This document shows positions 8,774-47,989 of a stretch of 64,000 nucleotides of DNA, piece by piece (the first letter of the stretch is position 1; the number at the start of each line of letters is the position of its first letter). Under the pieces are notes generated by a model. It saw nothing but the letters and a program-made list of their open reading frames with translations. It was not told the origin of the DNA and did no database searches. Source of the stretch: Candidatus Latescibacterota bacterium (GTDB lineage: Bacteria; Latescibacterota; UBA2968); the NCBI GenBank assembly GCA_965262145.1, contig OZ253501.1, forward strand, positions 2,148,946-2,212,945, given 5' to 3'. The position numbers and the translations under genes were made by a program.

Positions 8774-8901
8774 GGTGAGGGAAATTTATGTTAGAGGCAG
8801 ATGCGGGGCAAGAAGAAATAGCGATTGGTTCAAACTCTCCCAAAATCAGCTATTGGCGATTGGAAATGGTCAACCCGGCAAAGCCTGTGAGGATATTACA
8901 A

Positions 8902-10868: not shown

Positions 10869-10881
10869 GAAATTTATATTT

Positions 10882-12111: not shown

Positions 12112-12123
12112 AGGAGATTTCCG

Positions 12124-12815
12124 TGGCACCTGTGATTGTGACAGAAGGGGTGACCAAAGTGTATTCGGGCAATGGCGTGCCCGTTCACGCCTTGCGCGGG
12201 ATTGATCTCACCATTGAGCGCGGCGAATTTACGGCACTGGTTGGGCCATCTGGGTCCGGAAAAACGACTTTTCTCAATATTATCTCTGGGCTGGATACAC
12301 CAACGGACGGGAAGATATGGCTCAATGACAAACTTTTGTCGCGCATGAGCGGTAACGCACTTTCGGATTTTCGGCGGGATAATATTGGATTTATTTTTCA
12401 AGCGTACAATTTGATTCCGGTGCTAACCGTCGAGGAGAATATCGAATATATCATGATCCTGCAAAAGTTGCCCAAATCTGCACGGCATGAGCGCGTGCTG
12501 GCAATACTGGAAGAGGTGGGGCTGGGCGGGATGGCGAGTCGCAAGCCGACTCAACTTTCGGGTGGGCAGCAACAGCGGGTCGCGATTGCACGGGCCATGG
12601 TGTCTCAGCCGGCGATTATTTTGGCGGATGAACCGACAGCGAATCTCGATTCAAAGATCGGCGCAGAGTTGCTCGATATGATGTATCGGCTCAATACACA
12701 GACTGGTATGACATTTATTTTTTCGACACACGATCCGATGGTGATGGCGCGCGCGAGGCGGTTGATTATGCTGAAGGATGGGCAGATTGAGCGCGATGAG
12801 GTGGGGACGTCATGA
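12124..12815 (+). CDS. ABC transporter ATP-binding protein (LolD/MacB-NBD-like)
   Basis: Walker A GPSGSGKTT, signature LSGGQQQRVAIARA and Walker B ILADEPT. GTG start with AGGAG 7 nt upstream; the ORF-track start at 12018 overlaps the permease and is unlikely. Confidence 0.85.
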
Positions 12816-25189: not shown

Positions 25190-28100
25190 ATGGCTCGGTG
25201 GTGTGTTTCCGCGCGAAGTACAATACTGATCAATCTGTTCGTCCTTATTTTGGGTGTTTCAACTTCTGCTTTTGGCCAGGAGTATTTTGGCAAAAACAAG
25301 GTCAATTACAGCCAATATACATGGCATTATATCGATAGTGAACACTTCACGATTTATTTTGATAAAGGTTCGCTGGGCCTGGCCGAGTTTGTTGCCAAAG
25401 AAGCCGAAAGGTCTTTGGTACACATTGAGAAAACCCTGAAATATACGCTGAAGGATCGCTATCCTATTGTTATTTACAATTCTCACAATGGGTTTTCGGT
25501 GTCCAATATTTCCAGCATGGAACAGTCTGAGTTTACGGGTGGGTTTACCGAGTTTGCACAGGGGCGCGTGGTGATTCCATTTACGGGATCTTATGGCGAT
25601 TTGCAACATGTTATTCACCATGAACTGGTTCACGCGGTTACGATTGAGTTGTGGACAGGTGGTGGCTGGTTGGGGTCTCTGGTTTCGCAAACATCGATAT
25701 TGCCTCCCTTGTGGATTGCCGAGGGTATCGCCGAGTACGTGTCTCGATATGGCTGGCACAAAGAGCACGACAATTTTATGCGCGATGCAACCATTACCGG
25801 ATATGTACCGACTATCGAAATGATGTCCCTGAGTTATTTTGCCTATCCCGGTGGCAATTCGGTTTTTTATATGATCGAACAGGAATACGGTAAGGATAAG
25901 GTGGCGTCCTTTATTTCTTCTTTCCGCACAGCCAAAAATCCCGATAAAGCACTCAAAGCATCTCTGGGATTTGGGATGAAGGAATTGGAAGAAAAATATC
26001 AATTGTGGCTCAAGCGGCAATACTGGAATGAGATCAATTTGCGCCATACACCCAAAGAGATGGCAACAAATTTGACGGAAAGCGAAGATAGGCGCTCGTT
26101 TTATAATCTGGCTGCTGCGTTATCCCCACAAGGCGACAAGGTTGCGTATTTGACCGACCGAAATGGGACTTTTGACATTTATTTGATGTCGGCGATTGAC
26201 GGCAAAGACCTGGGGCGTTTGGTCGAGGGACAAAAGTCGTCTGATTTTGAGTCGATGTTTGTTTTGCGGCCCGGATTTACCTGGTCGCCGGATGGCCGGC
26301 ATATTGCATTCGCCGCCAAATCAAATAATAAGAATACCCTGTATATCCTCGATGTTAAAAAGAAGCAGATTCGCAAGCGATTTAAGTTTGACCTTGACGG
26401 GCTGTTCGAACCCACCTGGTCGCCCGATGGAGAAAAAATTGCCATCGCGGGTATTGAAGATGGCTGGTCCGATATCTATGTGGTCGATTTGAACGACGAG
26501 TCGCTTACGCGGCTTACAAATGATCCCTATGACGAGCGGCATCTAGATTGGTCGCCCGATGGCACGTGGATCGCCGTGAGTTCTGATCGTCCCGATACCC
26601 ATTTGAAGTTTAGCGGCGAGAAGGATTTTGTGTTTGGGCAGTACGATATTTTTCTTGTGCGTGCAGATGGCTCTGAGATGCGCCGCATTGTTGCGTCTAA
26701 AGACGCCGAAGATTCGCATCCCGTGTGGGGTGCCGATAGCAAACACGTCGCCTTTGTTTCTGACCGCACGGGTGTGGGTAATATCTATGTTGCCAATATT
26801 GACAGTACACAGGCGATATATCCCATTACCAATTTGCTGTCGGGAGCGCAATATCTCGATTGGTCAGCTGATGGCAAAAAGATCGTGTTCAATGCGTTTC
26901 ACAAGGGTGCCCTGGATATATTTGTGATGCGCGACCCACTTACACAGCGAAAAGAAATGGCGGATTTGCCGCGTACCCGCTTTGTCAAGCGCCTTGCCGG
27001 TGAAGATGAAAAGATGTTTGTCGAGTTGCAAAAAGAAAAATATGCGAGTCGCAATATTGCCAAAGTAGAAGCCGACAGTACCGTGGTCGATTCTACGGTA
27101 GAAAAAACAGAAAAGAAAGTGGCACAGTGGATTTCCGATCAGGAAGCACTTGCAGCGACAGAAAGTGCGCCTGCTGATAGTACGGTTGAAATCGATACCA
27201 CGCATCCCGTCGCTGGCAGTCCAGAAATGGCAGATACCGGCAAACAAGGGGTGAAAAACTGGGGTGAAAAGGAATTTTTGGTTAAAAAGTACAAGCTGAA
27301 ATTCAAACCCGAACTGTTTGGTGCTCAGGCGGGGTTTGATACATTCTACGGTGTGAGTAGTTCTATTGTATTGTCGATGAGTGATGTGATGGGTGATCAC
27401 CGCGCCACGTTGGTGACGAGTTTGAATTTTTCGCTCAAAGACAGTGATTTTCTGCTCGGTTATGCCTATTTGAGGAATCGCACAAATTACGGGGCACAGC
27501 TTTTTCACACGCGGTTCTTCTTCTTTGATAATACAGGTCGTCTGACTGCAGATCGATATTACGGGCTTGCCGGGGGTCTTGAGCGACCGTTTAATCGGTT
27601 CGCCCGTTTGGAACTCAGTACGCGTTTTGTATCTGTTGATCGCGAAGAGTTGGTTACCAATAGCAACACTCCTAATGATTATTTGTACCAGCCGGGCTTT
27701 CGCGGCGTTGGGCGGTTTACAGGCGTATTGATCAACCGCCGTCGGGCGGCTATTGGCGAAGTGGCTTTGGTGGGCGATAGCGCGCTGTACAGTTTGTTTG
27801 GCGCGGTAGATGGGCATCGCTATAGGTTGAATTTTGAAGGCTCTGGAGCGGGCATGAAGTTTGCCACATTTACGCTGGATTATCGCAAATATATGCGGTT
27901 GTTAAACGAATATACCTTTGCCATCCGCATGTCGGGCGGGACGAGTTACGGCCCCAACAGCACTGTGTTTTTTCTGGGCGGCGTGAACAATCCAGTCAAT
28001 CCGACATTTTCAACCATTGCCAGTGTTGATCAGAGTCGCGTATTTTTCTCTTCTTACGTCTGGCCCTTGCGCGGCGCGAGGTTGCTCGAAATGGCGGGTG

Positions 28101-28474
28101 ATTCTTATGTACTGGCCAATGTCGCATTTCGATTCCCGCTCATCCGGCAATTGGCTATGGGCTGGCCCCTGCCGTTTTTCTTCCAGAATGTACAGGGCGA
28201 ATTGTTCTTCGACATTGGAGGTGCCTTTGACCGCGCTCAGTGGAGAGATGGGTGGGTCTCCCGAGATGGGGGGTTTGAGCTCAATACGCCGCAAAACTTT
28301 AATACGGCGGAAATCAGGAAAACAAAACCGCAGATAGCCGCCGGGTATGGGTTTGGCGTGCGGGTAAATTTGGGCTATTTCCTATTTCGATACGACCTGG
28401 CATGGCCCACGGATCTCGCGCAAACATATCATCCACACCAGTATTTCTCAATTGATTTCACGGGCTTGTTCTAA
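25190..28474 (+). CDS. large outer-membrane protein (1094 aa): N-terminal HExxH zincin-like region, TolB-like beta-propeller repeats, C-terminal Omp85-like beta-barrel
   Basis: Signal peptide, then HHELVHA...EGIAEY, then repeated WSPDG...IAF... blades typical of TolB/WD40-like propellers. The C-terminus ends ...YFSIDFTGLF*, an aromatic terminus. Confidence 0.65.
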   Translation: MARWCVSARSTILINLFVLILGVSTSAFGQEYFGKNKVNYSQYTWHYIDSEHFTIYFDKGSLGLAEFVAKEAERSLVHIEKTLKYTLKDRYPIVIYNSHNGFSVSNISSMEQSEFTGGFTEFAQGRVVIPFTGSYGDLQHVIHHELVHAVTIELWTGGGWLGSLVSQTSILPPLWIAEGIAEYVSRYGWHKEHDNFMRDATITGYVPTIEMMSLSYFAYPGGNSVFYMIEQEYGKDKVASFISSFRTAKNPDKALKASLGFGMKELEEKYQLWLKRQYWNEINLRHTPKEMATNLTESEDRRSFYNLAAALSPQGDKVAYLTDRNGTFDIYLMSAIDGKDLGRLVEGQKSSDFESMFVLRPGFTWSPDGRHIAFAAKSNNKNTLYILDVKKKQIRKRFKFDLDGLFEPTWSPDGEKIAIAGIEDGWSDIYVVDLNDESLTRLTNDPYDERHLDWSPDGTWIAVSSDRPDTHLKFSGEKDFVFGQYDIFLVRADGSEMRRIVASKDAEDSHPVWGADSKHVAFVSDRTGVGNIYVANIDSTQAIYPITNLLSGAQYLDWSADGKKIVFNAFHKGALDIFVMRDPLTQRKEMADLPRTRFVKRLAGEDEKMFVELQKEKYASRNIAKVEADSTVVDSTVEKTEKKVAQWISDQEALAATESAPADSTVEIDTTHPVAGSPEMADTGKQGVKNWGEKEFLVKKYKLKFKPELFGAQAGFDTFYGVSSSIVLSMSDVMGDHRATLVTSLNFSLKDSDFLLGYAYLRNRTNYGAQLFHTRFFFFDNTGRLTADRYYGLAGGLERPFNRFARLELSTRFVSVDREELVTNSNTPNDYLYQPGFRGVGRFTGVLINRRRAAIGEVALVGDSALYSLFGAVDGHRYRLNFEGSGAGMKFATFTLDYRKYMRLLNEYTFAIRMSGGTSYGPNSTVFFLGGVNNPVNPTFSTIASVDQSRVFFSSYVWPLRGARLLEMAGDSYVLANVAFRFPLIRQLAMGWPLPFFFQNVQGELFFDIGGAFDRAQWRDGWVSRDGGFELNTPQNFNTAEIRKTKPQIAAGYGFGVRVNLGYFLFRYDLAWPTDLAQTYHPHQYFSIDFTGLF

Positions 28475-36813: not shown

Positions 36814-36842
36814 TTGACATCTCACAAGTTATTTATTAGCAT
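36814..36842 (+). promoter_or_regulatory. candidate sigma70-type promoter for the M28-FtsX fusion gene
   Basis: TTGACA, 17-nt spacer, TAGCAT; ~50 nt upstream of the ATG at 36893 (RBS AGGAG). Confidence 0.35.
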
Positions 36843-36892: not shown

Positions 36893-39800
36893 ATGCGTAA
36901 AATCGGCACAGGTATTCTCTGGATTATCACGATTTTGATGTTGTCTTCGGTGACCATTTTTAATCCGGGACAGGTGACGGATTTTTTTGTAACGCTCTTT
37001 AATATTAAACCGAGTATTCCCGAACTCAAACCCATTGAAATTTCAGAACGCGATCGGGAAATTCGGTCTGTTGCCGAGTCCCTTAGACAAGAAGATGTGC
37101 ACCAAATCATTGCCGACCTGTCGGGGATGGGGTCTCGGGTGCCCGGCTATGTGGGGCATCGGCGGGCTTTTGAATATGTCAAACAGTATTTTGAGCAAAT
37201 TGGTCTCGAAGACATTGAGGTCGAAGAGCACACGGTAACGGTTCCCATTGACAAAGGTGCTTCACTCACTTTGGCGGATACTGGCGAAGAGATTTCGGTT
37301 TACGGTCTTTGGCCCAACCATATACAAACGCCCTCTGTGCCCAATGCTGGGATTTCGGGGACACTTATTTATGGAGGCAAGGGGGCATTTTCAGAACTCA
37401 ATGGCAAAAAGGTCGAAGGCAGCATTGTCATAATGGATTTCGATTGTGACCAGAGCTATTTAAGCCCGCGTATGCTGGGGGCACAGGCCATTTTATTTTA
37501 TGACAATGGGCGGGTTACACGGGGCCAGGCAATGGATAAGTTTTTGCCCGTGCCCGTTGATGTGCCCCGGTTCTGGGTCGAAAAAGACGATGCTTTGCGC
37601 TTGCTCGAATTGGCCCAAACGCAATCGCCTGAAGTGCTTTTAACGTCGAAGATGGATTGGGAAGAGGTGCCGACCTGGAATATTTTTGCAACCCTTCCCG
37701 GATCCGAAGATTATATTACGGAGCGCGAAGAGCGCAAGTGGAAAGACCAGCAGATTGTGCTGAGTGCTTTTTACGATGCCATTTCCGTTGTACCTGCTCT
37801 CGCGCCGGGTGCTGAAAATGCGTCGGGGATGGCTGCACTTTTGCATACTGCCCGCGTTTTGAAACAGCATCCGCCAAAATATTCGGTGACCTTTTTGGCA
37901 ACTGGTTCTCATTTTCAGGGCCTGTCGGGTATCAATGATTTTGTATATCGCCATTCGCGCGAAAGCGATCATTTCCGCGAGTTGATTCCCGATAGTGTGT
38001 CGGCTGCCGGCGCTTATCTCGATGGCGAACTTATTCCGCGCGACAGCGAAGATTTTGAAGAGCTCATTCCCGGCAGCTATAAAATTGATTTTCGGTTATT
38101 TATCGGGTTAGACCTGTCGAGTGAATCCGACCAGTTGGCGAGCTTTTCTCACGGCACTTTTAACAACCCAAATTGGCAGACAGATAATTATCTGAATAAT
38201 CTGCTGGCGCCTTATGCGGACAAATTCGATAAATATATGGCCAAAGTCTTTTCGGGCGAAGAAGCGCGCCATGTCGATGCGATTGCACCGCCAAAACGCA
38301 CGTGGAAAAATTTTATGCCCATTCGCCTGGGATTCGATAGCGAGGCCGTCACTTTTGTTGGGAAAGAAGGTATTACACTGGCAACGCCATCAACTGTGCG
38401 GCGTTTTGTTGATACGCCCATTGATCGCGTTGAGCATGTCAATATGGACAATTTGACGCGCCAGGTTCAAACGGCGATAGCCGCCATGATGAAAGCGGGT
38501 GAAGATCCCGAGTTTTTCAGGGTATCCAAACTCAAATTGCAAGATCGCGGACACAGTTTGAAAGGGCGCGTGTTGTGGTTTGATCGCAATGTCGATTTCG
38601 CGTTGCCTCGCGTGCCCGTGCCCGGTGGGGTTGCGACGTATCGGCAGCCGGGCAATGTTCACAGTTGTGCGGGGGTGCGGACGCTGATTATTGACAAGAC
38701 GACAGACGGTCCCATTTACGATATCAGATTGGCAAAAAATAAAACAGATGCAGACCCAAACTTGTATGGCGATCCAGATGATGTCAAACAAACGGGAGAG
38801 TTTTTCTTTAATATTATGCGCAATCGGTTTACCAATCGCATTTTGGCTTATGATATTGACGAAGAGGGGAATATTACGTCGGCACCCGACATGGGTTCTG
38901 AGGGCGATAAGAAATTTCCACTGACACAGCGATATGGCTGGTGGGAAAATGAAATGATGACGGTTCTGTTTAAGAGCCGCTCTATCAGTGTTTTTGAAAT
39001 TATCGATTCGAGCTATTTGTCGGCACTTGATTTTATGACAGTGCTCAACGACAACGATACGCAGCCCCTGGAATTTGGCTATACGTATTTGCCGGGGCAA
39101 AGCACCAAAGAGGGCGATGTGACACGCGCTGCAGTGACGTTTGCGCAGGTGGATGAACACACGGGGAAAGCCGAACGGTTGAAAATTTTGATGAGCACGG
39201 GCTTGTTTGGTGTTAAGTATTTGTTGATCAATGCACCCCAGAAGTTTTTGGATAATCCGGTTGATAAACGCATGGTGAATTCCGATCTTCTGGAAGAGGC
39301 GCGAGGTGAAGGGTATGAACCCGGCGTCATTTTCACGCCCTCGTATCAGGCCGCTAGAGATATGTGGGTGATTGACGATGTGCGGATGAAACAGTTGGCG
39401 CAATTTGGTATTGAGAACAATCGCCTTACCCTGTTGCACAACAGTGCGCGCGAGGCACTGATCGAAGCGCGTCAGCACCTTGAAAATTTGGATTACGAAG
39501 GGTTTATGGCCGCATCTCGGCGGGCATGGGGGCTGGAGGCGCGGGGGTATCCCGAAGTGATGGCTACGGCCAATGATACTGTGCGGGGCATTATTTTTTA
39601 TTTTATTTTGTTGTTGCCATTTTCATTTTTCTGCGAGCGGTTGTTGATTGGCGCGTCGAGTATTACCGCGCGCTTGAGCTGGTTTGCTGCGTTTTTTGTG
39701 TTTTTCTTTATTGTTCTGCGCTTTGTCCATCCGGCTTTTCAGTTGAGCAATTCTCCCTATATTATTTTTCTCGCATTTGTGATTATGGCCCTCGGCGGTG

Positions 39801-41740
39801 TGGCAATGGTCATTGTGGTGTCTAAGTTTGGCGATGAAGTTCGCAAAATGAAGCAGGCTTCTGCCGGGACTTATGAAGCCGATGTCGGGCGCATTAGCGC
39901 GACATCGGCCGCGGTTGTGCTGGGCATTTCAAATCTGCGAAAGCGCCCCATGCGCACGGGGCTGACGGCGATTACCTTGACCTTATTGACGTTTACGACC
40001 CTGTCTTTTACCTCGGTGCAGACTTCGTTGAAGTTTTACAAATTGCCCCGCGACAACGAGCCATCTTATCAGGGGGCACTCGTGCGCGACCGATCTTGGC
40101 GCGGGATGCAGGAATCGGTTCTCAATTATCTCAATAGCGCTTTTAAAGGCCGCGCCGATATTGTGCCGCGATCGTGGTATTTGTCACAGGTTCGGGGCGA
40201 GCGCGCTTATGTGAATTTTTCTCGCGTGACAGAGGCCACCGCCGATATGGGTCCCAAGGAGATTTACGTCGATTTCGATGTGGGTATTACCACGGGGAAA
40301 GACAGTTTTGTCAATGCGCTGCTGGGGCTTACGCCAGACGAACCCAAAATTACCGGAGTGGATCGCTATTTGATGAGCGGGCGGTGGTTTGAACCCGGAG
40401 AAGAGTTCGTTTGTCTGGTGCCCAATGATCTGGCCGAACTTGTCGGTATTTTCCCCGAGGATGCTGGCACGGCTAAAATTGAAATGCAGGGGCAGATTTT
40501 TACGGTGATTGGCATTCTCGATTCTGAAATGTTTAACAAATTCAAAGATCTGGATGATGAAAAACTGACCCCTGTTGATACGGTGAAAGAAAAAGACGAT
40601 TTGGCAGATGCACAGGATCAGGACCCGCGGGTCGTCGCGGCTGCGCCTATTGAAACCTTTACCCATTTGGAGTCAACCAATGTGCTCGTTGTGCCCTATG
40701 AGTATATTCGGGATATTGGGGGTGTGTTGGCTTCGGTAGCGATTGCGAATTTTAAGGATGAGAGCGGGCAGCCCAAGTTGAATTTTGTCCCCGACATTGA
40801 AGAGTTTATGGCGCGCGTGTCTTTGACCATGTTTGTGGGCAAGGATAATGGCGTAACCGTTTATAGTTCGATTGGTTCAACGTCGCTTTCTGGATTGGGC
40901 AATTTGTTTATCCCGATCTTGATTGCGGCACTCATTGTGCTCAATACTATGATGGGTGCTGTGTATGAGCGTTTCCGGGAGATTAGTATTTATTCTTCGG
41001 TGGGGTTGGCTCCTAATCATATTGCTGCACTTTTCCTCGCGGAGGCCGGCGTGTTTGCCACACTCGGTGCGGTTATGGGATATTTGATTGGACAAGTGCT
41101 CGTGCTCATACTTTACAATGAGGGATTGTTGGGTGGCCTGGAATTGAATTATTCGTCGCTGTCTGCAATTTCCGCCACGTTGATTGTGATGGCAACGGTA
41201 TTTCTCTCCGCGCTTTATCCAGCGAAAAAAGCCGCGGATATGGCTGTGCCTGATGTGACCCGCAAATGGGAATTTCCCGATCCGGATGGCGATCGGTGGG
41301 TATTTGATTTTCCCTTTACCGTAGGTGGTGCTGAGGTATTGGGCATGTACTCCTATTTGACCCGAGTTTTCGAATCTTATGGCGAGGGATCGGTGGGTGA
41401 TTTTGTTGCAGATCATGTGAAGTTTTGGTCTGAGGATCACGAGGGAGAACCGCAATACAATATTGACCTGACGGCATGGTTAGCGCCTTATGATCTGGGG
41501 ATTAGCCAGGAAGTGCAGTTAAAAGCCATTCCAACAGGTGAGCACAATATTTATAAAATTGAAGTGGTGATCAATCGCTTGAGTGGCGATGTGGCGTCCT
41601 GGAAACGGATCAATCGCGGATTTTTGAATGTGTTGCGAAAGCGATTCCTTGTCTGGCGTACGATTCCGGGTGACATGAAGTTCAATTATGCAGAAGACGG
41701 ACGCCGGGCGTTGTCTGGCGAAGTCGCGGCAATAGCATAA
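36893..41740 (+). CDS. 1615-aa fusion: N-terminal TM anchor + PA/M28 peptidase-like ectodomain, then MacB/FtsX-type permease module and C-terminal extra domain
   Basis: The N-terminal half shows IYGGKG...KVEGSIVIM (PA-domain-like) and ...GAENASGMAALLHTARVL (M28 Zn-site-like). From ~aa 1000, NLRKRPMRTGLTAITLTLLTF is an FtsX N-terminal TM, followed by a periplasmic core domain and ...FIPILIAALIVLNTMMGAVYERFREISIYSSVGL (FtsX domain). Confidence 0.7.
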   Translation: MRKIGTGILWIITILMLSSVTIFNPGQVTDFFVTLFNIKPSIPELKPIEISERDREIRSVAESLRQEDVHQIIADLSGMGSRVPGYVGHRRAFEYVKQYFEQIGLEDIEVEEHTVTVPIDKGASLTLADTGEEISVYGLWPNHIQTPSVPNAGISGTLIYGGKGAFSELNGKKVEGSIVIMDFDCDQSYLSPRMLGAQAILFYDNGRVTRGQAMDKFLPVPVDVPRFWVEKDDALRLLELAQTQSPEVLLTSKMDWEEVPTWNIFATLPGSEDYITEREERKWKDQQIVLSAFYDAISVVPALAPGAENASGMAALLHTARVLKQHPPKYSVTFLATGSHFQGLSGINDFVYRHSRESDHFRELIPDSVSAAGAYLDGELIPRDSEDFEELIPGSYKIDFRLFIGLDLSSESDQLASFSHGTFNNPNWQTDNYLNNLLAPYADKFDKYMAKVFSGEEARHVDAIAPPKRTWKNFMPIRLGFDSEAVTFVGKEGITLATPSTVRRFVDTPIDRVEHVNMDNLTRQVQTAIAAMMKAGEDPEFFRVSKLKLQDRGHSLKGRVLWFDRNVDFALPRVPVPGGVATYRQPGNVHSCAGVRTLIIDKTTDGPIYDIRLAKNKTDADPNLYGDPDDVKQTGEFFFNIMRNRFTNRILAYDIDEEGNITSAPDMGSEGDKKFPLTQRYGWWENEMMTVLFKSRSISVFEIIDSSYLSALDFMTVLNDNDTQPLEFGYTYLPGQSTKEGDVTRAAVTFAQVDEHTGKAERLKILMSTGLFGVKYLLINAPQKFLDNPVDKRMVNSDLLEEARGEGYEPGVIFTPSYQAARDMWVIDDVRMKQLAQFGIENNRLTLLHNSAREALIEARQHLENLDYEGFMAASRRAWGLEARGYPEVMATANDTVRGIIFYFILLLPFSFFCERLLIGASSITARLSWFAAFFVFFFIVLRFVHPAFQLSNSPYIIFLAFVIMALGGVAMVIVVSKFGDEVRKMKQASAGTYEADVGRISATSAAVVLGISNLRKRPMRTGLTAITLTLLTFTTLSFTSVQTSLKFYKLPRDNEPSYQGALVRDRSWRGMQESVLNYLNSAFKGRADIVPRSWYLSQVRGERAYVNFSRVTEATADMGPKEIYVDFDVGITTGKDSFVNALLGLTPDEPKITGVDRYLMSGRWFEPGEEFVCLVPNDLAELVGIFPEDAGTAKIEMQGQIFTVIGILDSEMFNKFKDLDDEKLTPVDTVKEKDDLADAQDQDPRVVAAAPIETFTHLESTNVLVVPYEYIRDIGGVLASVAIANFKDESGQPKLNFVPDIEEFMARVSLTMFVGKDNGVTVYSSIGSTSLSGLGNLFIPILIAALIVLNTMMGAVYERFREISIYSSVGLAPNHIAALFLAEAGVFATLGAVMGYLIGQVLVLILYNEGLLGGLELNYSSLSAISATLIVMATVFLSALYPAKKAADMAVPDVTRKWEFPDPDGDRWVFDFPFTVGGAEVLGMYSYLTRVFESYGEGSVGDFVADHVKFWSEDHEGEPQYNIDLTAWLAPYDLGISQEVQLKAIPTGEHNIYKIEVVINRLSGDVASWKRINRGFLNVLRKRFLVWRTIPGDMKFNYAEDGRRALSGEVAAIA

Positions 41741-41777: not shown

Positions 41778-43832
41778 TTGGCAACTGAACCACGAGATAC
41801 GGAAGAAACTGAAGAGGATCTGGCCGAATACGAACAGATTATGCCAGAGGACGCGCCCTTTGAAGATGGCTTTGGCTGGAAGACGATATGGGCGACCATG
41901 TTCGTTGGGATTATCATGTTGCCGGGGGCGATTTATTTGGGCCTGGTGACCGGGCAGAGCATGGCTGGCGCGTCTGAGTGGGTGACGATTATTCTCTTTT
42001 TGGAGATTGCCAAGCGATCTTTTGTTCGGCTCAAGACACAGGAAATTTTGATCATCTATTGGGTCGCCGCGGGGCTGTTGGGCATTGGGGTAAAACTCGG
42101 TTCTGGCGCGCACCTGTACGGCGGGCCTTTTGGTGGGTTGATCTGGGATCAGTATTTGATTCAGTCACCCGCAGCGCAAGGTCTGGATAAGTATATTCCG
42201 GGGTGGGTGACGCCGCCTTTGGATTCGCCGGTTTATGCCGAGCGCACGTTTATGCATACCGACTGGCTTTTGCCGGTGTTGATTCTGTTTCTGGCCATGA
42301 TCATCAATCAGACTGCGCGGTTGTCCTTTGGGTATGTGATGTTCCGAATTACCAGCGATATCGAGCAATTGCCTTTCCCGATGGAGCCCGTTCATGCACG
42401 CGGTGTCACCGCACTGGCTGAAACATCGGCCAAAACCGAGGGTTGGCGTTGGCGCGTGTTTAGCACGGGAACGTGTATTGGTCTGGTATGGGGGCTGCTC
42501 TATGTGGTTGTGCCCACGTTGTCGGGCATTTTTCTGACGGAGGTCGTTCAGGTCTTGCCAATTCCATTTATCGATTTTACAGCCGAGGTAAAGACTATAT
42601 TGCCCGCTGCCGTGTTTGGTATAGGGACGGATTTGGGGCATTTGTTGATCGGTTTTGTCCTGCCGTTTTACGTAGTAGTTGGGTCGTTTATCGGTGCTGT
42701 GCTTGCCAATCTGGTGATTAATCCATTGCTTTATACCTACACAGATATTTTGAGCCGGTGGGCACCGGGGATGACGGCGATTCCCGCAAGTATTTCCAAT
42801 CGTTTTGACTTCTGGTTGAGTTTTGGGATCGGAACTTCGATCGTGATCGCGCTCACCGGGTTTTATATGGTGGGTAAAACCCTGTTGGAGCAGCGCAAGG
42901 TGCAACAGGAAACAGGGCATCATTCGGTGAAAATTAGTATGGAGGATTTGCCAGAGGGCCGAGGGGATATACCGATGAAGTGGCCTCTTGTTTTGTGGGT
43001 TATGGGTTCTTTGGCCGCCATTGGTTTGTGCCAGTGGCTCGTACCGGAATTCCACTGGTTATGGCTCGTTTTCTTCGCGTTTATTTATACGCCTGTTTCG
43101 TCTTATATCGGTGCCCGGATGATCGGTCTTACGGGCAGCCCTTATGGGGCGAGCGTTCCCTATATTCGAGAAGCGGCCATTTTCTTATCGGGGTATAAGG
43201 GTGTGGCGGTGTGGTTTGCCCCTATTCCACTGCACGACCACGGGCTGGCCGTGCGGCAGTTTAAGCAACTGGAATTGACCAAAACAAAGATCGGCAGTTA
43301 TATCAAAATGGTGGTGATTACGACATTTGTGATTTTCCTGTGCAGCTTTTTGTTTTATGAGTTTATCTGGCGGTTGGGTCCCATTCCTTCTTCGACATAT
43401 CCCTACGTGCAGTTGTTCTGGCCGTTTGAAGCTACGATGCAAACAATGTGGCTCAAATCGACTTTGCCACCAGGAGAAGTACAGGGTGCTGCTGGTCTGG
43501 AACTGCTGACGGATATTATCAAGCTAAAATATATCATCACTGGTTTGGTGTCGGGTGGGCTTCTCTATCTGACGCTGGTCGCCATCAAGGTTCCCGTGCT
43601 GGCATTTTTCGGTTTTGTGAATGGCCTGGCGCAATGGCCGCACTTTGTCATTTTGAATTTTGCCGGGGCGATGCTGGGGCGATACCATTTTTCCAAGCGG
43701 TTTGGCGAGTCCAAATGGCAGGCTTACGCGCCTATTTTATTGGCGGGTTATTCCTGCGGCATGGGGCTTATTGGCATGACCTCAATTGCCGTCGCTTTGA
43801 TATCCAAAGCCGTGTCTCAGGTTGTTTTCTAA
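41778..43832 (+). CDS. polytopic membrane protein (about 16 TM), possibly an OPT-like transporter
   Basis: 684 aa, very hydrophobic. The start is 37 nt after the fusion gene. Confidence 0.5.
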   Translation: MATEPRDTEETEEDLAEYEQIMPEDAPFEDGFGWKTIWATMFVGIIMLPGAIYLGLVTGQSMAGASEWVTIILFLEIAKRSFVRLKTQEILIIYWVAAGLLGIGVKLGSGAHLYGGPFGGLIWDQYLIQSPAAQGLDKYIPGWVTPPLDSPVYAERTFMHTDWLLPVLILFLAMIINQTARLSFGYVMFRITSDIEQLPFPMEPVHARGVTALAETSAKTEGWRWRVFSTGTCIGLVWGLLYVVVPTLSGIFLTEVVQVLPIPFIDFTAEVKTILPAAVFGIGTDLGHLLIGFVLPFYVVVGSFIGAVLANLVINPLLYTYTDILSRWAPGMTAIPASISNRFDFWLSFGIGTSIVIALTGFYMVGKTLLEQRKVQQETGHHSVKISMEDLPEGRGDIPMKWPLVLWVMGSLAAIGLCQWLVPEFHWLWLVFFAFIYTPVSSYIGARMIGLTGSPYGASVPYIREAAIFLSGYKGVAVWFAPIPLHDHGLAVRQFKQLELTKTKIGSYIKMVVITTFVIFLCSFLFYEFIWRLGPIPSSTYPYVQLFWPFEATMQTMWLKSTLPPGEVQGAAGLELLTDIIKLKYIITGLVSGGLLYLTLVAIKVPVLAFFGFVNGLAQWPHFVILNFAGAMLGRYHFSKRFGESKWQAYAPILLAGYSCGMGLIGMTSIAVALISKAVSQVVF

Positions 43833-43939
43833 GATAAAAAGATTGTGGAACTTTTGTCCGGGCATGTGTCGTCTAATTTTTTGCGATACATGCCCGGATT
43901 TTTATGGGCATTTTTTCAACTTTTTCAAAGGAGCAGGTT

Positions 43940-44446
43940 ATGCAGAGGTTTCGACTCTTCGGTTTTTTGGCAGTGGCAATGCTTATGGCCGCGTCCTGCG
44001 ATGTGTGGGCACAGCCTCAAAGAGGTGGTCAAGGTCAAGGGGAGCGTGGGGGGGCACGCGGGGGCGTTCAGGTGTCGCGTTTTTTGCCAGTTGAACAGGT
44101 GCTGACGTATTTGTTGTTTGATGAGAATGTCGGTTTGAGCGATGAGCAACTCGTCAAGGTGCGCACGTCACTCAAAGGGGTTTATACAAAACGCCAGGAA
44201 TTGCAAAGAAGCCTGCGCGGAAGCAACGATCAGCAGGCGGCGATGCAAAAAGTGCGCGCACTGCGAATGGAAATGACACAGGGCCTGACAGCCATTCTCA
44301 ATGAGGATCAGACAAAGGCATTTCAAGGAGAGATGCAGCGGATGAGCCAGCGCGGGCAGCGCGGGCAGCGCGGGCAAGGGCAGCGCGGAGGTCAAGGTGG
44401 TCAGGGTGGTCGCCGTGGTGGTGGCGGTGGTGGCGGTGGTGAATAG
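43940..44446 (+). CDS. Spy/CpxP-family periplasmic protein (LTxxQ motifs) with Gly/Gln/Arg-rich tail
   Basis: AGGAG lies before the ATG at 43940 and there is a signal peptide. LSDEQLVKV and LNEDQTKAFQ are LTxxQ-type motifs. The C-terminus QRGQRGQRGQGQRGGQGG...GGGGGGGGE is encoded by short tandem repeats. Confidence 0.6.
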   Translation: MQRFRLFGFLAVAMLMAASCDVWAQPQRGGQGQGERGGARGGVQVSRFLPVEQVLTYLLFDENVGLSDEQLVKVRTSLKGVYTKRQELQRSLRGSNDQQAAMQKVRALRMEMTQGLTAILNEDQTKAFQGEMQRMSQRGQRGQRGQGQRGGQGGQGGRRGGGGGGGGE

Positions 44447-44485: not shown

Positions 44486-44526
44486 AAACGCGGGTTTCTT
44501 TGAAAGAAACCCGCGTTTGTTTTTTG
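44486..44526 (+). terminator. Rho-independent terminator after the CpxP-like gene
   Basis: aaacgcgggtttc-tttgaa-agaaacccgcgttt followed by GTTTTTT. Confidence 0.7.
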
Positions 44527-44570: not shown

Positions 44571-45944
44571 TTGCAATGGGAGGGTTCTGTGATACCTGAG
44601 TCTATTAAACATCTCAAGCGGCCTTTTTCATTTGCGGTTGTGAGTGACACGCATTTTGTGACGCGAGATTTTATCGGGCAGGCGTTTGATGCGACAAGAC
44701 CGCTCAGTACTGAGGGGTATGTGGAAAATGTGACCTATTCGCTCGCGCCAATGATGGATGCACTGCGCGATCTCAAACCGGATTTTCTAATTTTGACTGG
44801 CGATGTGGCTGAACCCCCGCTGGATCCAGAACGCCACCGCGAGAATCTCAAGGCTGCACTGGATTTTTTTGCCACATGCGATATTCCCATAGTCGTCGCT
44901 CGCGGCAATCACGATGGCACTTCGGCTTTTGATGAGGTTGTGGGGCCGCGTATTGCACAGTTTTTAGGCGAGACGCCCAAAGCGCATTATTTTTTCTTTG
45001 AGGTGGATGGTTGCCAGTTTATTATTTTGGATACGCCGTATTGGAATACCGAGCAATGTCAGTGGCTCGACGCCGTGTTGAAAGAAAATGCTTATACACC
45101 GTCCTTTTTGGTGGGGCATCATCCTATATGGCCGGTAGCACGCGCTTTTTTTTACAATCGCGATTTTCAGACGGATATGGTCAATCTTCTGTCCCAGCAC
45201 GGGATTGATGCCTATTTTTGTGGGCATTCACACAATCAAAGTATTGTGTTGCACCGCACGCCCTATTTGCCGGTATTGCAGTGTATGGGGGCTTTGGTTG
45301 GATTGTCTGACGCATCGCCGCTTCCGCTCAACCGCGTTCAGGCCCTTTTGCCCACATCCGATGATCTCATGGCTGTTTGGCCCGGATATATTGAAAATAC
45401 GGCTCCGGGATGGTTTATGGGATATGTTGCACAGGGTCAGGCGCGTGTGGAATGGCATCATATTAACCGCGGGGCGGAAGCCATGGTGCGTTGGTTTCGC
45501 CCTGGGGACATTCAGACTTTTTGGACAATGGATCCCGCGCCACCTGCCCAACTCATTGAAGCAAATTTGCGGCGTATTCGCCAGGGGATGCTCCGTTTTT
45601 GTGCCTGGGATAGTATGGGAGATGCGCGCGTATTTCTCAATGGAAATGAGATTGGCCTTTTGCCGCGTGCAGATAATTTTACGCCCAGTCGCCTGTCTTT
45701 ACCACCCAACGCGCTCGCTGGTTTGCAGATGGAAAATAAGGTGCGTATTGAACCGGCTGAGGGTAGTGAGATGACGCTTGGCAATCTGGTTCTCGAAGTG
45801 GTATTGCCCGGTGGTCGTTATGTGCGCTCGCTGGTTTTTGAAGATATTTATACGTGGTCTAACCGGTGGGATGGATATGAATATGAGACGCTGCAAAAGA
45901 TGCAACCGGGACGACCGTTAACGACGGTGTTGTCTTTCAGGTGA
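44571..45944 (+). CDS. calcineurin-like metallophosphoesterase
   Basis: Motifs DTH..., GDVAE, GNHDG and GHHP, with a C-terminal beta-rich extension. Confidence 0.65.
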
Positions 45945-47989
45945 GGATTATGACAAACACAAACAAGACCAATAGACTGATCCACGAGACCAGCCCGTAT
46001 TTATTGCAACATGCACATAATCCCGTCGCGTGGTTTCCGTGGGGGGAAGAGGCGTTTGAAAAGGCCGTTGCCGAAGACAAGCCTATTTTTTTAAGTGTGG
46101 GATATGCAGCCTGTCACTGGTGTCATGTGATGGCACACGAGTGTTTTGAAGACGAGGAAATCGCGCAGATTATGAACGCGCATTTTGTCAATGTGAAGGT
46201 CGATCGAGAAGAGCGTCCCGATGTCGATGAAATTTATATGAATGCAGTACAGGTTATGACCGGTTCCGGCGGGTGGCCTATGAGTGTGTTTTTGACACCG
46301 CAGGGCGTTCCATTTTACGGGGGCACATATTTTCCACCTCAGAGTCGGCACAATATACCGGGCTTTCCCCATGTCCTGGAATCCGTTGCCAGACATTATC
46401 GGGAAAAGGGTGAAAATGTCGCAGATGTGGCGAATCGGTTGTACGAGCACTTGCGGGCGATGGCGCATATTGATGCGTTGGCAGATGGCCTTAGTGAAGC
46501 GGATTTTGATGGTGCGTTTCAAAAGATCAGAGCGAATTTTGATTTCCAAAATGGCGGGTTTGGCACGCAGCCCAAGTTCCCCAATTCGATGAATCTCGAT
46601 GTATTTTTGCAAACTTATTTGCGTACGGGGAACGAAGAGGCACTTGCGATGGTGACATTGACGCTGGAAAAAATGGCGCGGGGAGGCATTTACGATCAAC
46701 TCGGCGGGGGATTTCACCGCTATTCTGTAGATCGCCACTGGCTGGTACCCCATTTTGAGAAGATGCTGTATGACAATGCACTGCTCTCACAGCTTTATAC
46801 GCAGACTTATCAGGTGACGAAGCAACCGCTTTTTGCGCGCATTGTTAGGTCAATTTTGGATTATACGCACCGAGAGATGACCGCACCAGAAGGCGGTTTT
46901 TATTCTACGCAAGATGCCGATAGCGAAGGGGAAGAGGGCAAATTTTTCGTGTGGACTCCGCAGGAGGTGATGGATTTATTAGGCGAAGACGATGGAGCGG
47001 CATTTTGTCGGTATTTCGATGTGACGGCGCGAGGCAATTTTGAAGATAAAAATATCCTGAATATTCCGCAGACCTACGAGGTGGATGAAGACGCAATGGC
47101 ACGCGGATGTGACTGTTTGTTTGAAAAGCGAGAAAAGCGCGTGAAACCCGGGCGCGATGAGAAAATTCAGGTGAGTTGGAATGGGCTGATGATTTCGGCT
47201 TTTGCGCAAGCGTATCGGGTGTTTGGCGATCCGGTTTATCTGAAGGGGGCGTCAGATGCAGCTCGGTTTATCGACGAGAATATGCGTACAGATCGCGGGT
47301 TGTTGTTGCACACCTATACAGATGGTCGCGCGCGTTTCAATGCCTATCAGGATGATTATGCCTGTCTGATTGTTGGGTTAATTGATCTGTACGAATCGAG
47401 TTTTGAGCCTTCTTATCTCGTTGCTGCCCGCGATTTTATGGAGGTAATGATCGATCAGTTTTGGGATCGAGAAGATGGCGGATTTTTTTATACGGGGAGA
47501 GATCACGAAGCATTGATTGTGCGTTCAAAAAATCCTTTTGACAATGCCACGCCCTCTGGCAATTCGATGGGGGCGATGGCGTTGCTGCGATTGGGAACGT
47601 TGCTGGAGCGCGAAGAATGGCGGGGTATGGCCGCCCGTATTTTGCATCTTTTTGGCAGGCATATTCAGGAGGTGCCTTCGGGTTTTGGCAATATGATTTG
47701 TGCTTTGGATCTCTATTTGCAAGGGCCAGTGGAAGTCGCTGTTTTGGGAGATCGAGAGGGGGCGGATACGGTTGCACTGCTCGATGTAGTGAATAAAACA
47801 TGGCGACCCAATGTGGTTTTATGTGGAGGAAGTGATCCCGTGTCCGATGCCATTCCACTTCTGAAAAATCGCGGCATGATCGACGGACGCGCCACAGCTT
47901 ATGTCTGTCGCAATTTTGTCTGCTCTGAACCCGTTACAGATGCCGAGGCACTGGAAAAATTACTGGATGAATCGAGTTCGGGATACTAA
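45941..47989 (+). CDS. thioredoxin-domain protein YyaL/DUF255 with six-hairpin glycosidase-like domain
   Basis: [22 protein letters not shown]...[11 protein letters not shown] is the YyaL signature. Overlaps the upstream gene by 4 nt. Confidence 0.85.

What the first reader, a model, noticed from the sequence alone, without database searches (positions are those of the whole stretch)
36893..41740. 1615-aa single polypeptide fusing an M28/PA peptidase-like ectodomain to a MacB/FtsX-type permease, with no cognate ABC ATPase nearby
MacB/FtsX/LolE-type modules normally carry or partner with an N-terminal cytoplasmic NBD. Here the N-terminal ~880 aa are instead an anchored PA + M28 aminopeptidase-like domain, followed by three TMs and then a complete FtsX module (TM, periplasmic core, FtsX helices) plus a ~170-aa C-terminal domain. 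No ATPase gene is adjacent; the next gene is a 16-TM protein. This could be a mechanotransmission-type complex coupling an extracytoplasmic protease-like domain to membrane remodelling, or an FtsEX-like regulator of a hydrolase. I am not aware of this architecture being characterised.
Basis: partly seen in the sequence, partly recalled or inferred. Interest (0 to 1): 0.65.

Follow-up and report, generated by a model that had tools for sequence, protein, structure and literature searches.

The report
Peptidase-like FtsX giant paired with transporter
A 1615-residue membrane protein of an uncultured Latescibacterota bacterium joins a catalytically altered aminopeptidase-like outer domain to a MacB/FtsX-type membrane module without an ATPase. 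It is the founding example here of a large, unstudied family that always travels with, and is sometimes fused to, a peptide-transporter-like protein.

Summary
ORF 36893-41740 encodes a 1615-aa protein with this layout:
- signal anchor
- PA+M28-fold ectodomain
- beta-rich domain
- helical stalk
- 3-TM bundle
- complete MacB/FtsX 4-TM module with a periplasmic core domain
- family-specific 174-aa cytoplasmic C-terminal domain

It has no P-loop and no adjacent ABC ATPase.

1. The M28 site is not canonical. The catalytic Glu is His in 130/130 relatives, and the zinc ligands are replaced (Asp to Glu, Glu to Phe, His to Tyr/Phe).
2. The downstream "16-TM" gene is a divergent OPT-superfamily (peptide-transporter-like) protein. 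It, or its distant homolog DUF6785/DUF6784, lies within 10 kb in 75 of 80 related loci. The DUF6785/DUF6784 type is fused in frame to the giant protein in at least two metagenomic sequences.
3. The family is large: at least 561 loci in species genomes and 1455 clusters at 50% identity. It is often multi-copy, occurs in Latescibacterota, Gemmatimonadota and allies, and I found no paper on it.

Best reading (about 0.4): a stable inner-membrane complex that captures periplasmic peptides for the OPT-like permease. The energy source is unresolved. This is a new variant of the type VII ABC permease fold.

The parts
36814..36842 (+). sigma-70-like promoter candidate (TTGACA-17-TAGCAT) in the 232-nt intergenic region upstream of the giant ORF
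   Evidence: 10 of 12 matches. The region-wide count is not above shuffles, so this is only a candidate. No Rfam element in the leader.
36893..41740 (+). giant ORF, 1615 aa: PA/M28-like ectodomain fused to 3 TMs, a MacB/FtsX module and a C-terminal domain
36902..36958 (+). N-terminal signal anchor (aa 4-22)
   Evidence: Hydropathy 2.06, with MRK before it.
37025..38512 (+). PA + M28-fold domain (aa ~45-540) with a remodelled site: F293 (Y/F/H in the family), D295, E308, H340, F341, D407, E484
   Evidence: HMMER alignment to 2ek8/6hc6. Foldseek 2ek8 E 7e-24, TfR1 and GCPII E 1e-17 to 1e-19. Residue census in 130 relatives.
38555..39322 (+). beta-rich ectodomain region (aa ~555-810) with no detectable relative
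   Evidence: Strands in the model. No PDB sequence hit even with the family profile.
39338..39589 (+). three long helices (aa 816-899) forming a stalk into the membrane
   Evidence: Model secondary structure H794-815, H821-842, H846-877 in sub-sequence numbering, +22 for full-length.
39590..39817 (+). family-specific 3-TM bundle (aa 900-975) with invariant FYF..LPF..ER and HPAF motifs
39956..41215 (+). MacB/FtsX-type module: TM1, periplasmic core domain (aa 1043-1330), TM2, coupling-helix loop (aa 1351-1376), TM3, TM4
   Evidence: Pfam FtsX. NCBIfam partial MacB, LolC and ADOP hits. Foldseek MacB, LolC/E, HrtB and FtsX. PF12704 in relatives.
41216..41737 (+). cytoplasmic C-terminal domain (aa 1442-1615), alpha/beta, rich in invariant Trp/Phe, ending in a basic amphipathic helix; found only in this family
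   Evidence: 1455 hits. Among the 150 best listed hits it lies at the C-terminal end of long proteins, or before a fused DUF6785 or another C-terminal extension. Model pLDDT about 79. No Pfam or PDB sequence match.
41778..43832 (+). conserved partner gene: 684-aa polytopic protein, a divergent OPT-superfamily (peptide-transporter-like) member, 38 nt downstream
   Evidence: Synteny. 3/17 relatives hit OPT. Relative P0214 passes the Pfam OPT cut-off. NCBI names relatives 'peptide transporter'. hhalign to DUF6785: 90.9%.
43904..44446 (+). 180-aa lipoprotein-like gene (lipobox LMAAS|C, Gly/Gln/Arg-rich ends), last gene of the apparent operon; conserved only in close relatives
   Evidence: no significant Pfam hit.
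44486..44518 (+). terminator-like hairpin (15-bp stem, T-run) closing the three-gene unit

Best explanation
The gene encodes the central subunit of a conserved inner-membrane complex.

**Shown:**
- A transferrin-receptor/GCPII-like PA+M28-fold ectodomain whose di-zinc catalytic centre is replaced by a different, almost invariant set of residues (E308, H340, F341, D407, E484).
- This ectodomain is held on a helical stalk above an 8-TM membrane part. The membrane part contains a complete MacB/FtsX (type VII ABC) permease fold and a family-specific cytoplasmic domain, but no nucleotide-binding domain.
- It is co-transcribed with an OPT-superfamily polytopic protein.
- The DUF6785 type of partner is fused in frame to it in some organisms.

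**Inferred:**
- The two proteins form a stable complex.
- The peptidase-like ectodomain, together with the MacB-type periplasmic domain, captures periplasmic peptides or unfolded protein ends. It does so by binding, or by a non-canonical cleavage.
- It passes them to the OPT-like permease for proton-driven uptake.
- The FtsX module acts mainly as a scaffold or gate. Any ATP input would come from an ATPase encoded elsewhere.
For: **Architecture and folds:**

**Non-canonical site, in 130 relatives:**
- catalytic Glu replaced by His in 130/130
- bridging Asp replaced by Glu in 123/130
- Glu ligand replaced by Phe in 112/130
- His ligand replaced by Tyr/Phe in 111/130
- D407 present in 129/130 and E484 in 122/130

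**Partner:**
- The downstream gene is immediately adjacent (4-290 nt, same strand) in about 40 of 80 loci, including those only 38-40% identical.
- 75/80 loci carry a d1-type or DUF6785/6784-type gene within 10 kb. Four of the five exceptions are short contigs.
- The two partner types are distant homologs: hhalign 90.9%, E 1e-6.
- The d1 type reaches Pfam OPT: P0214 scores 39.6 bits against 25.8, and sources name relatives 'peptide transporter'.

**Fusion and fission:**
- P0357 is one 6363-nt ORF on a 123-kb contig. It encodes ectodomain + FtsX + C-terminal domain + DUF6785 + DUF6784.
- P0363 repeats this fusion.
- In L084 the ectodomain is a separate gene just upstream of the membrane module: hhalign 99.95%.

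**Neighbours and operon:**
- Lipoprotein PPIases occur in 17 loci and TPR proteins in 18, which fits handling of unfolded polypeptides.
- Operon structure in the window.

**No ATPase:**
Against: - No biochemical or genetic datum exists for any member.
- Uptake direction and peptide substrate rest only on the OPT relationship. That relationship is distant: the window's own protein gives no Pfam hit. OPT relatives also carry metal chelates and glutathione.
- The cytoplasmic TM2-TM3 loop, which docks the ATPase in MacB, LolC and FtsX, is among the most invariant stretches of the protein: 15 of 26 positions are invariant. That argues for a cytoplasmic partner, possibly an ATPase, rather than a passive scaffold.
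- In 4 of 80 loci from two clades, a MacB/LolD-class ATPase with a minimal FtsX permease lies in the same gene string.
- Invariance of the remodelled site could mean real, unknown catalysis rather than binding.
Confidence: 0.4

Rival explanations
1. It is a genuine ATP-driven type VII ABC machine whose ATPase is encoded elsewhere. One candidate donor is the LolD/MacB-class ATPase that pairs with a minimal 214-235-aa FtsX permease lacking a periplasmic domain. ATP-driven mechanotransmission through the FtsX module moves the periplasmic core and the peptidase-like ectodomain. That motion would extract or present a substrate, as YbbAP does for TesA or FtsEX does for EnvC.
For: - The coupling-helix loop N-x-M-x-x-x-V-x-E-R-x-R-E-I is almost invariant and matches the MacB pattern.
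- Small FtsX + ATPase follow big-d1 on the same strand in L017, L055, L057 and L060. The big genes there are 53% and 40% identical to the query, i.e. two clades.
- The pair is widespread in the same phyla. It exists elsewhere in a MAG that carries a big gene: L082 versus L053.
- Orphan FtsX permeases have a precedent in the ADOP family, which gives a partial hit.
- YbbAP-TesA shows a type VII ABC system teamed with a hydrolase (PMC12646458).
Against: - 76/80 loci lack it.
- In L017 a PqqD-like ORF sits between, so the ATPase pair may belong to a separate unit.
- The 174-aa C-terminal domain directly follows TM4, where an NBD would dock.
- The strongest conserved partner is a secondary-transporter-like protein, not an ATPase.
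Confidence: 0.25
2. It is an envelope protein biogenesis or quality-control complex. The inactive M28-like ectodomain would act as a substrate-recognising lid on a polytopic membrane core, as nicastrin does in gamma-secretase or nicalin in the ER multipass translocon. It would work with periplasmic chaperones.
For: - The family profile weakly matches nicalin (E 1.6e-4) and the transferrin receptor (E 2e-6), both catalytically dead M28 folds.
- PPIase lipoproteins and TPR proteins recur in the cassettes.
- The site degenerates further in the split form L084, where GAENA becomes GAGQA.
Against: - This is analogy only.
- No Sec, YidC or Bam genes are linked.
- Multi-copy paralogs and the OPT relationship fit nutrient handling better.
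Confidence: 0.1
3. It is an active, non-canonical metallohydrolase. A mononuclear Glu/His/Glu/Asp site would trim substrates at the membrane, and the OPT-like partner would import the products.
For: - E308, H340, D407 and E484 are 94-100% conserved at the positions of the former metal and catalytic residues. Such conservation implies selection on the pocket.
- Glutaminyl cyclases show that M28 folds can work with one metal (established knowledge, not tested here).
Against: - No known M28 member is active without the Glu general base.
- Spatial clustering of these residues could not be checked, because no coordinates are available.
- The split homolog L084 lacks E308 and H340 equivalents.
Confidence: 0.15
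4. It is an FtsEX-like regulator of a cell-wall hydrolase, or a MacAB/LolCDE-type exporter.
For: FtsX fold. ftsY lies directly upstream of the big gene in L057 and L060.
Against: - There is no FtsE, MacA or LolA partner next to it.
- A separate LolA-like + LolC/E-like + LolD-like cluster exists in the same window.
- Genomes carry 2-3 paralogs.
- M28 is not a peptidoglycan hydrolase family.
Confidence: 0.05

Closest known systems
MacB / LolC-LolE / FtsX / YbbP (type VII ABC transporter permeases)
   Same: 4-TM core with a large periplasmic domain between TM1 and TM2. Conserved E-R-x-x-E-I coupling loop between TM2 and TM3. Pfam FtsX domain. Structural match over ~500 columns.
   Different: - No fused or adjacent nucleotide-binding domain.
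- Preceded by an ~880-aa ectodomain and a 3-TM bundle.
- Followed by a unique 174-aa cytoplasmic domain.
- The conserved partner is an OPT-superfamily polytopic protein, not an ATPase, adaptor or carrier.
PA-domain M28 aminopeptidases (Aneurinibacillus 2ek8, B. subtilis BSAP/YwaD, P. aeruginosa PaAP)
   Same: Fold and domain order: M28 core with an inserted PA domain. Recognisable GA-x-NASG and G-L-x-G motifs.
   Different: - Catalytic Glu replaced by His.
- Zinc ligands replaced.
- Long extra domains.
- Membrane-tethered at both ends.
Transferrin receptor 1, nicastrin, nicalin (catalytically inactive M28-like ectodomains on membrane complexes)
   Same: PA+M28 fold used without the di-zinc centre, anchored to the membrane. 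Profile hits: TfR1 E 2e-6, nicalin E 1.6e-4.
   Different: Those are eukaryotic, single-pass proteins with unrelated partners. Here the substituted residues are themselves almost invariant.
YbbAP-TesA and FtsEX-EnvC (type VII ABC systems teamed with a periplasmic hydrolase or hydrolase activator)
   Same: A MacB-fold membrane module coupled to a hydrolase-like periplasmic element (PMC12646458; PMC7668044).
   Different: Those systems use separate proteins and a dedicated ATPase. Here the element is fused in cis, probably not hydrolytic in the classical sense, and no ATPase is linked.
ADOP (acidobacterial duplicated orphan permeases, TIGR03434)
   Same: FtsX-fold permeases that are multi-copy and not next to an ATPase gene. 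Partial hit E 1.7e-4.
   Different: ADOP proteins are tandem duplications of the permease unit. They lack a peptidase-like domain, the C-terminal domain and an OPT-like partner.
OPT oligopeptide transporters (PF03169) and DUF6785/DUF6784 proteins (for the partner gene)
   Same: About 650-aa polytopic proteins. One relative passes the OPT cut-off. Profile-profile link between the two partner types.
   Different: The window's copy is too divergent for Pfam. No OPT protein is known to work with an FtsX-type protein.

Membership tests
MacB/FtsX-type (type VII ABC) permease superfamily | FtsX C-terminal domain (PF02687) above the curated threshold | tested here: met
   48.8 bits against a 25.5 cut-off, aa 1339-1449.
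MacB/FtsX-type (type VII ABC) permease superfamily | Four TM helices with a large extracytoplasmic domain between TM1 and TM2, N-terminus of TM1 in the cytoplasm | tested here: met
   Hydropathy and positive-inside count. Model helices and strands. Foldseek to MacB, LolC/E, HrtB and YbbP over ~500 columns, E 2e-11 to 1e-9.
MacB/FtsX-type (type VII ABC) permease superfamily | MacB-like periplasmic core domain (PF12704) | tested here: inconclusive
   No Pfam hit for the window protein. PF12704 is recorded for several relatives and is weak in P0357. The structural alignment spans this region.
MacB/FtsX-type (type VII ABC) permease superfamily | Cognate ABC ATPase, fused or encoded next to the permease | tested here: not met
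   No Walker A or signature motif in the ORF. Adjacent genes are not ATPases. ABC ATPase ORFs lie within 10 kb in only ~10 of 80 related loci, and only 4 are in the same gene string.
MacB/FtsX-type (type VII ABC) permease superfamily | ATP-driven mechanotransmission | not testable with these tools
   Needs biochemistry or structures in different nucleotide states.
M28 metallopeptidases | M28 alpha/beta fold, here with inserted PA domain | tested here: met
   Foldseek 2ek8 E 7e-24, 6hc6 E 3e-22. Pfam M28 35.4 bits against 21.3. PF02225 is recorded in relatives.
M28 metallopeptidases | Five co-catalytic zinc ligands (His, bridging Asp, Glu, Asp, His) | tested here: not met
   Aligned positions are F293 (Y/F in 111/130), E308, F341, D407 and E484. 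The last two equivalences rest on motif spacing, not on a structure superposition.
M28 metallopeptidases | Catalytic general-base Glu (first Glu of the EE motif) | tested here: not met
   His340 in 130 of 130 relatives.
OPT oligopeptide transporter family (partner gene 41778-43832) | Match to PF03169 above the curated threshold | tested here: inconclusive
   The window protein has no hit. Three of 17 relatives hit, best E 8.7e-6. Relative P0214 (58% identical) scores 39.6 bits against 25.8. Precomputed OPT hits exist in 93-95% identical relatives.
FtsEX-type cell-wall hydrolase regulators | FtsE ATPase partner, small periplasmic domain that binds a coiled-coil activator or hydrolase, single copy in a division context | tested here: not met
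   No FtsE next to it. The periplasmic domain is ~290 aa and MacB-like. There are 2-3 paralogs per genome and varied non-division neighbourhoods.

The most novel reading that the evidence does not exclude
The MacB/FtsX fold is used here without any ATPase. Proton-driven conformational cycling of the OPT-superfamily subunit, bound or even fused to it, would replace ATP hydrolysis as the motor of mechanotransmission. The family-specific C-terminal domain would sit in the place of the nucleotide-binding domain. That would make it the first proton-motive-force-coupled member of the type VII ABC fold, operating a nicastrin-like pseudo-peptidase lid in bacteria.
Probability: 0.1. Interest if true: 0.85.

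Novelty: new variant of a known kind. Interest (0 to 1): 0.62.

Why it matters
- Type VII ABC permeases (MacB, LolCDE, FtsEX, YbbAP) are defined by ATP-powered mechanotransmission. A large, conserved family that keeps the fold but has swapped the ATPase partnership for an OPT-like polytopic protein would widen what this fold can do.
- It gives a bacterial example of a catalytically altered M28 ectodomain mounted on a membrane complex, as in the transferrin receptor, nicastrin and nicalin.
- Practically, these genes are annotated 'M28 family peptidase'. They are therefore likely to be counted as extracellular peptidases in metabolic reconstructions of Latescibacterota and Gemmatimonadota, for example the M28 counts in PMC11316326. 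They lack the catalytic residues, so their role in protein degradation should not be assumed.
- The phyla concerned are abundant and uncultured. A multi-copy system of this size probably matters for how they feed.

Tried and rejected
- **Assembly or annotation artefact:** rejected. The full-length architecture is present in at least 390 clusters and at least 561 genome loci.
- **ATPase hidden in the ORF or next to it:** none. The motif scan and Pfam scans of 20 window ORFs found nothing.
- **LolA-like/LolC/E-like/LolD-like cluster at 8788-12815 as the partner:** it is self-sufficient and 24 kb away. It cannot be assessed in the ±10 kb flanks of relatives.
- **Upstream divergent genes (Laminin_G_3, DUF4398, YkuD, PorV-like) and downstream Metallophos and DUF255 genes:** conserved only in the 12-15 closest loci, so they are not part of the system.
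- **Riboswitch in the leader:** none.
- **C-terminal domain identity:** no Pfam, NCBIfam or PDB sequence match. Weak Foldseek hits to START/Bet v 1/PsbP-like folds (E ~0.01, rmsd 9-14 Å) were judged unreliable.
- **180-aa downstream lipoprotein as a Spy/CpxP-like chaperone:** LSDEQ/LNEDQ motifs are visible by eye, but there is no significant Pfam match.
- **Literature:** searches for DUF6785/DUF6784 and for FtsX+M28 fusions or orphan MacB-type permeases found no description of this family.
- **Small FtsX + ATPase as an obligatory partner:** not supported by synteny (4/80 loci). Kept as a lead.
Full report
**The observation**

Window 36893..41740 (+) is a single ATG-initiated ORF of 1615 aa with an AGGAG box 8 nt upstream.

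Pfam finds two domains:
- FtsX (PF02687) at aa 1339-1449, 48.8 bits against a cut-off of 25.5.
- Part of Peptidase_M28 (PF04389) at aa 282-361, 35.4 bits against 21.3.

NCBIfam gives only partial, sub-threshold matches to MacB, LolC, ADOP and FtsX for the same C-terminal stretch. Sequence searches of the PDB match MacB, YtrF, LolC and LolF at aa ~1322-1450, and the PA-containing M28 aminopeptidases 2ek8 and 6hc6 at aa 47-360. With the family profile these reach E 5e-13 and 6.5e-11. The transferrin receptor (2e-6) and nicalin (1.6e-4) then also appear.

**Anatomy**

Hydropathy and charge counts give this layout:
- signal anchor, aa 4-22
- ectodomain, aa 23-899
- three TM helices, aa 900-975
- basic cytoplasmic linker (9 K/R)
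- FtsX TM1, about aa 1022-1042
- periplasmic domain, aa 1043-1330
- TM2-4, aa 1332-1441
- 174-aa cytoplasmic tail

Two AlphaFold2 models were built on 52-sequence alignments.

The N-half model (pLDDT 88, pTM 0.87) shows a PA+M28 fold, then a beta-rich region, then three long helices leading into the membrane. Its best PDB matches are 2ek8 (E 7e-24), BSAP, PaAP, transferrin receptor 1 and GCPII.

The C-half model (pLDDT 74.5) matches MacB, LolC/E, HrtB, YbbP and FtsX over about 500 columns. Its last 174 residues form an alpha/beta domain (pLDDT about 79) with no convincing relative.

**The M28 site is not canonical**

In the HMMER alignments to 2ek8 and 6hc6:
- The H-x-D motif reads F293-Y294-D295.
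- GA(D)DNASG reads GA-E308-NASG.
- The catalytic/ligand pair EE reads H340-F341.

In 130 family sequences:

| Canonical M28 residue | Position here | Residue found |
|---|---|---|
| Catalytic Glu | 340 | His 130/130 |
| Bridging Asp ligand | 308 | Glu 123, Asp 7 |
| Glu ligand | 341 | Phe 112, His 16 |
| First His ligand | 293 | Tyr 76, Phe 35, His 18 |
| Second Asp ligand (by motif spacing) | 407 | Asp 129/130 |
| Last His ligand (by motif spacing) | 484 | Glu 122/130 |

The protein fails the defining features of an M28 peptidase, yet its pocket is under strong selection. In a divergent split form (L084) even E308 and H340 are lost.

**Family and origin**

The window is 96-97% identical in this protein to chromosomes of uncultured Latescibacterota.
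- Full-length relatives of 1450-1750 aa number at least 390 clusters in the protein database.
- At least 561 loci occur in species-representative genomes, mainly Latescibacterota and Gemmatimonadota, plus some Planctomycetota and Omnitrophota.
- Several genomes hold two or three copies.
- The C-terminal domain alone finds 1455 clusters at 50% identity. In the 150 best hits listed it lies at the C-terminus of long proteins, of fragments, or ahead of a fused extra module.

Source annotations read 'M28 family peptidase', 'FtsX-like permease family protein' or 'hypothetical'. I found no paper on the family.

**The conserved partner**

The 684-aa polytopic gene lies 38 nt downstream (41778-43832). 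It is immediately downstream in about 40 of 80 related loci, including those only 38-40% identical, and within a few kb in others.

Other clades carry a DUF6785+DUF6784 protein of about 640 aa directly before or after the big gene. Some carry both types: L074 reads DUF6785-big-d1, L028 reads big-DUF6785-d1, and L013 has DUF6785 on both sides.

Seventy-five of 80 loci have at least one of the two. Four of the five exceptions are short contigs.

The two partner families are distant homologs: hhalign 90.9%, E 1e-6. The d1 type belongs to the OPT superfamily:
- Three of 17 members hit PF03169.
- A 58%-identical relative scores 39.6 bits against the 25.8 cut-off.
- NCBI names relatives 'peptide transporter'.

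The window's own copy is too divergent for Pfam.

**Fusion and fission**

P0357 is one 6363-nt ORF on a 123-kb contig. It contains the whole big-type protein followed by a complete DUF6785/DUF6784 protein: Pfam E 9e-120 and 3e-29, and BLASTP E 2e-87. P0363 shows the same join.

Conversely, in L084 the ectodomain is a separate 841-aa gene just upstream of a 745-aa stalk+3TM+FtsX+C-terminal-domain gene: hhalign 99.95%, E 3e-38.

These rearrangements are the strongest evidence that ectodomain, FtsX module and OPT-like protein act as one complex.

**The ATPase question**

The ORF has no P-loop or ABC signature. The window's two ABC ATPases belong to a LolA-like/LolC/E-like/LolD-like cluster 24 kb upstream and to an ABC-2 transporter 13 kb downstream. 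ABC ATPase ORFs occur within 10 kb in only about 10 of 80 related loci.

In four loci (L017, L055, L057, L060; two clades) a LolD/MacB-class ATPase follows big-d1 on the same strand. It comes with a 214-228-aa FtsX permease that lacks a periplasmic domain. In L017 a PqqD-like ORF intervenes.

That small pair is widespread in these phyla, with at least 7995 hits. It stands alone among housekeeping genes in a MAG that also has a big gene. It is a candidate ATPase donor, but nothing more.

The TM2-TM3 loop that docks the ATPase in MacB-type proteins is nearly invariant here. Some cytoplasmic partner is therefore likely. It could be a trans ATPase or the family's own C-terminal domain.

**Operon and other neighbours**

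In the window a promoter-like site (36814-36842) and a 15-bp terminator-like hairpin (44486-44518) bracket three genes: the big gene, the partner, and a 180-aa lipoprotein-like gene. The lipoprotein-like gene is conserved only in close relatives. No Rfam element lies in the leader.

In other clades, lipoprotein PPIases (17 loci) and TPR proteins (18 loci) recur in the cassette. Flanking genes in the window (Laminin_G_3, DUF4398, YkuD, Metallophos, DUF255) are not conserved with the family.

**Interpretation**

Shown: the architecture, the altered M28 site, the family's size, the obligatory OPT-superfamily partner, the natural fusions, and the lack of a linked ATPase.

Inferred: the proteins form an inner-membrane complex. 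The peptidase-like ectodomain and the MacB-type periplasmic domain capture periplasmic peptides or unfolded polypeptide ends. They hand these to the OPT-like permease for proton-driven uptake. I put this at about 0.4.

Rivals:
- An ATP-driven type VII ABC machine with a trans-encoded ATPase, YbbAP-TesA-like: 0.25.
- A non-canonical metallohydrolase feeding the permease: 0.15.
- A nicastrin/nicalin-like biogenesis or quality-control complex: 0.1.
- An FtsEX- or MacAB-like role: 0.05.

These readings overlap in part. They differ mainly in energy source and in whether the ectodomain binds or cleaves.

**Novelty**

All folds are known. The combination is not described: no NBD, a cis-fused inactive M28/PA ectodomain, an extra 3-TM bundle, a unique cytoplasmic domain, and an OPT-like partner. 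I class it as a new variant of the type VII ABC permease kind.

The most novel reading not excluded is a proton-motive-force-coupled MacB fold in which the OPT-like subunit replaces the ATPase (about 0.1).

Noticed in passing
window 8788-12815 (+): A complete separate MacB-type system. It comprises a LolA_like protein (PF17131), two LolC/E-like permeases (405 and 409 aa, MacB_PCD+FtsX) and a LolD-class ATPase. It shows the genome has canonical type VII ABC systems alongside the ATPase-less giant.
   Followed up: partly
window 25190-28474 (+): A 1094-aa ORF combining Peptidase_MA_2, PD40/WD40-like beta-propeller repeats and a C-terminal Omp85 domain. This is an unusual peptidase-propeller-outer-membrane-barrel fusion.
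   Followed up: no
window 43904-44446 (+): A 180-aa lipoprotein-like ORF (lipobox LMAAS|C) with Gly/Gln/Arg-rich low-complexity ends and LSDEQ/LNEDQ motifs reminiscent of Spy/CpxP-type periplasmic proteins. There is no significant Pfam hit. It is the last gene before a strong terminator-like hairpin.
   Followed up: partly
L057 16357-17768, L060 16726-18117, L055 18164-19685, L017 9505-11110: A minimal FtsX permease (214-228 aa, only a ~30-40-aa periplasmic loop) plus a LolD/MacB-class ATPase lie downstream of the big-partner pair. The small-permease family has at least 7995 database hits and is otherwise a stand-alone two-gene unit (L081, L082). Its function is unknown.
   Followed up: partly
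L017 7999-9501: A 354-aa ORF without Pfam hits and a PqqD-like (RiPP-recognition-element-type) 133-aa ORF lie between the partner gene and the small FtsX/ATPase pair. L055 has ORFs of similar size (311 and 139 aa) in the same position.
   Followed up: no
L083 6001-12363: The natural triple fusion (ectodomain + FtsX + C-terminal domain + DUF6785/6784, 2120 aa) is flanked by four FG-GAP/UnbV_ASPIC proteins and a sulfatase.
   Followed up: no
L084 4366-9238: A split version of the system. An 841-aa ectodomain protein with a further degenerated M28 site is followed by a 745-aa stalk+3TM+FtsX+C-terminal-domain protein. A DUF6785 gene lies about 6.7 kb upstream.
   Followed up: partly
P0241, P0242, P0244 (2769-3053 aa): Much longer family members with extra N-terminal modules, for example Big_5 in P0241. 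P0307 has extra TM helices and a C-terminal Cys-rich extension.
   Followed up: no
L057 8690-9628 and L060 8711-9634: ftsY (SRP receptor) lies directly upstream of the big gene. The string reads ftsY - big - partner - small FtsX - ATPase - GGDEF, which loosely recalls the E. coli ftsY-ftsE-ftsX operon.
   Followed up: no
L025 4150-5799, L029 197-1903, L030 8-1225 and 14 other loci: Lipoprotein PPIC-type peptidyl-prolyl isomerases (Rotamase_2) are part of the cassette in the ~50%-identity clade. TPR proteins recur in 18 loci.
   Followed up: partly
window 45941-47989 (+): A 682-aa DUF255 thioredoxin-like protein with a C-terminal glycosyl-hydrolase-like (six-hairpin) region overlaps the stop of a Metallophos gene (44571-45944) by 4 nt. 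It is conserved only in close relatives.
   Followed up: no
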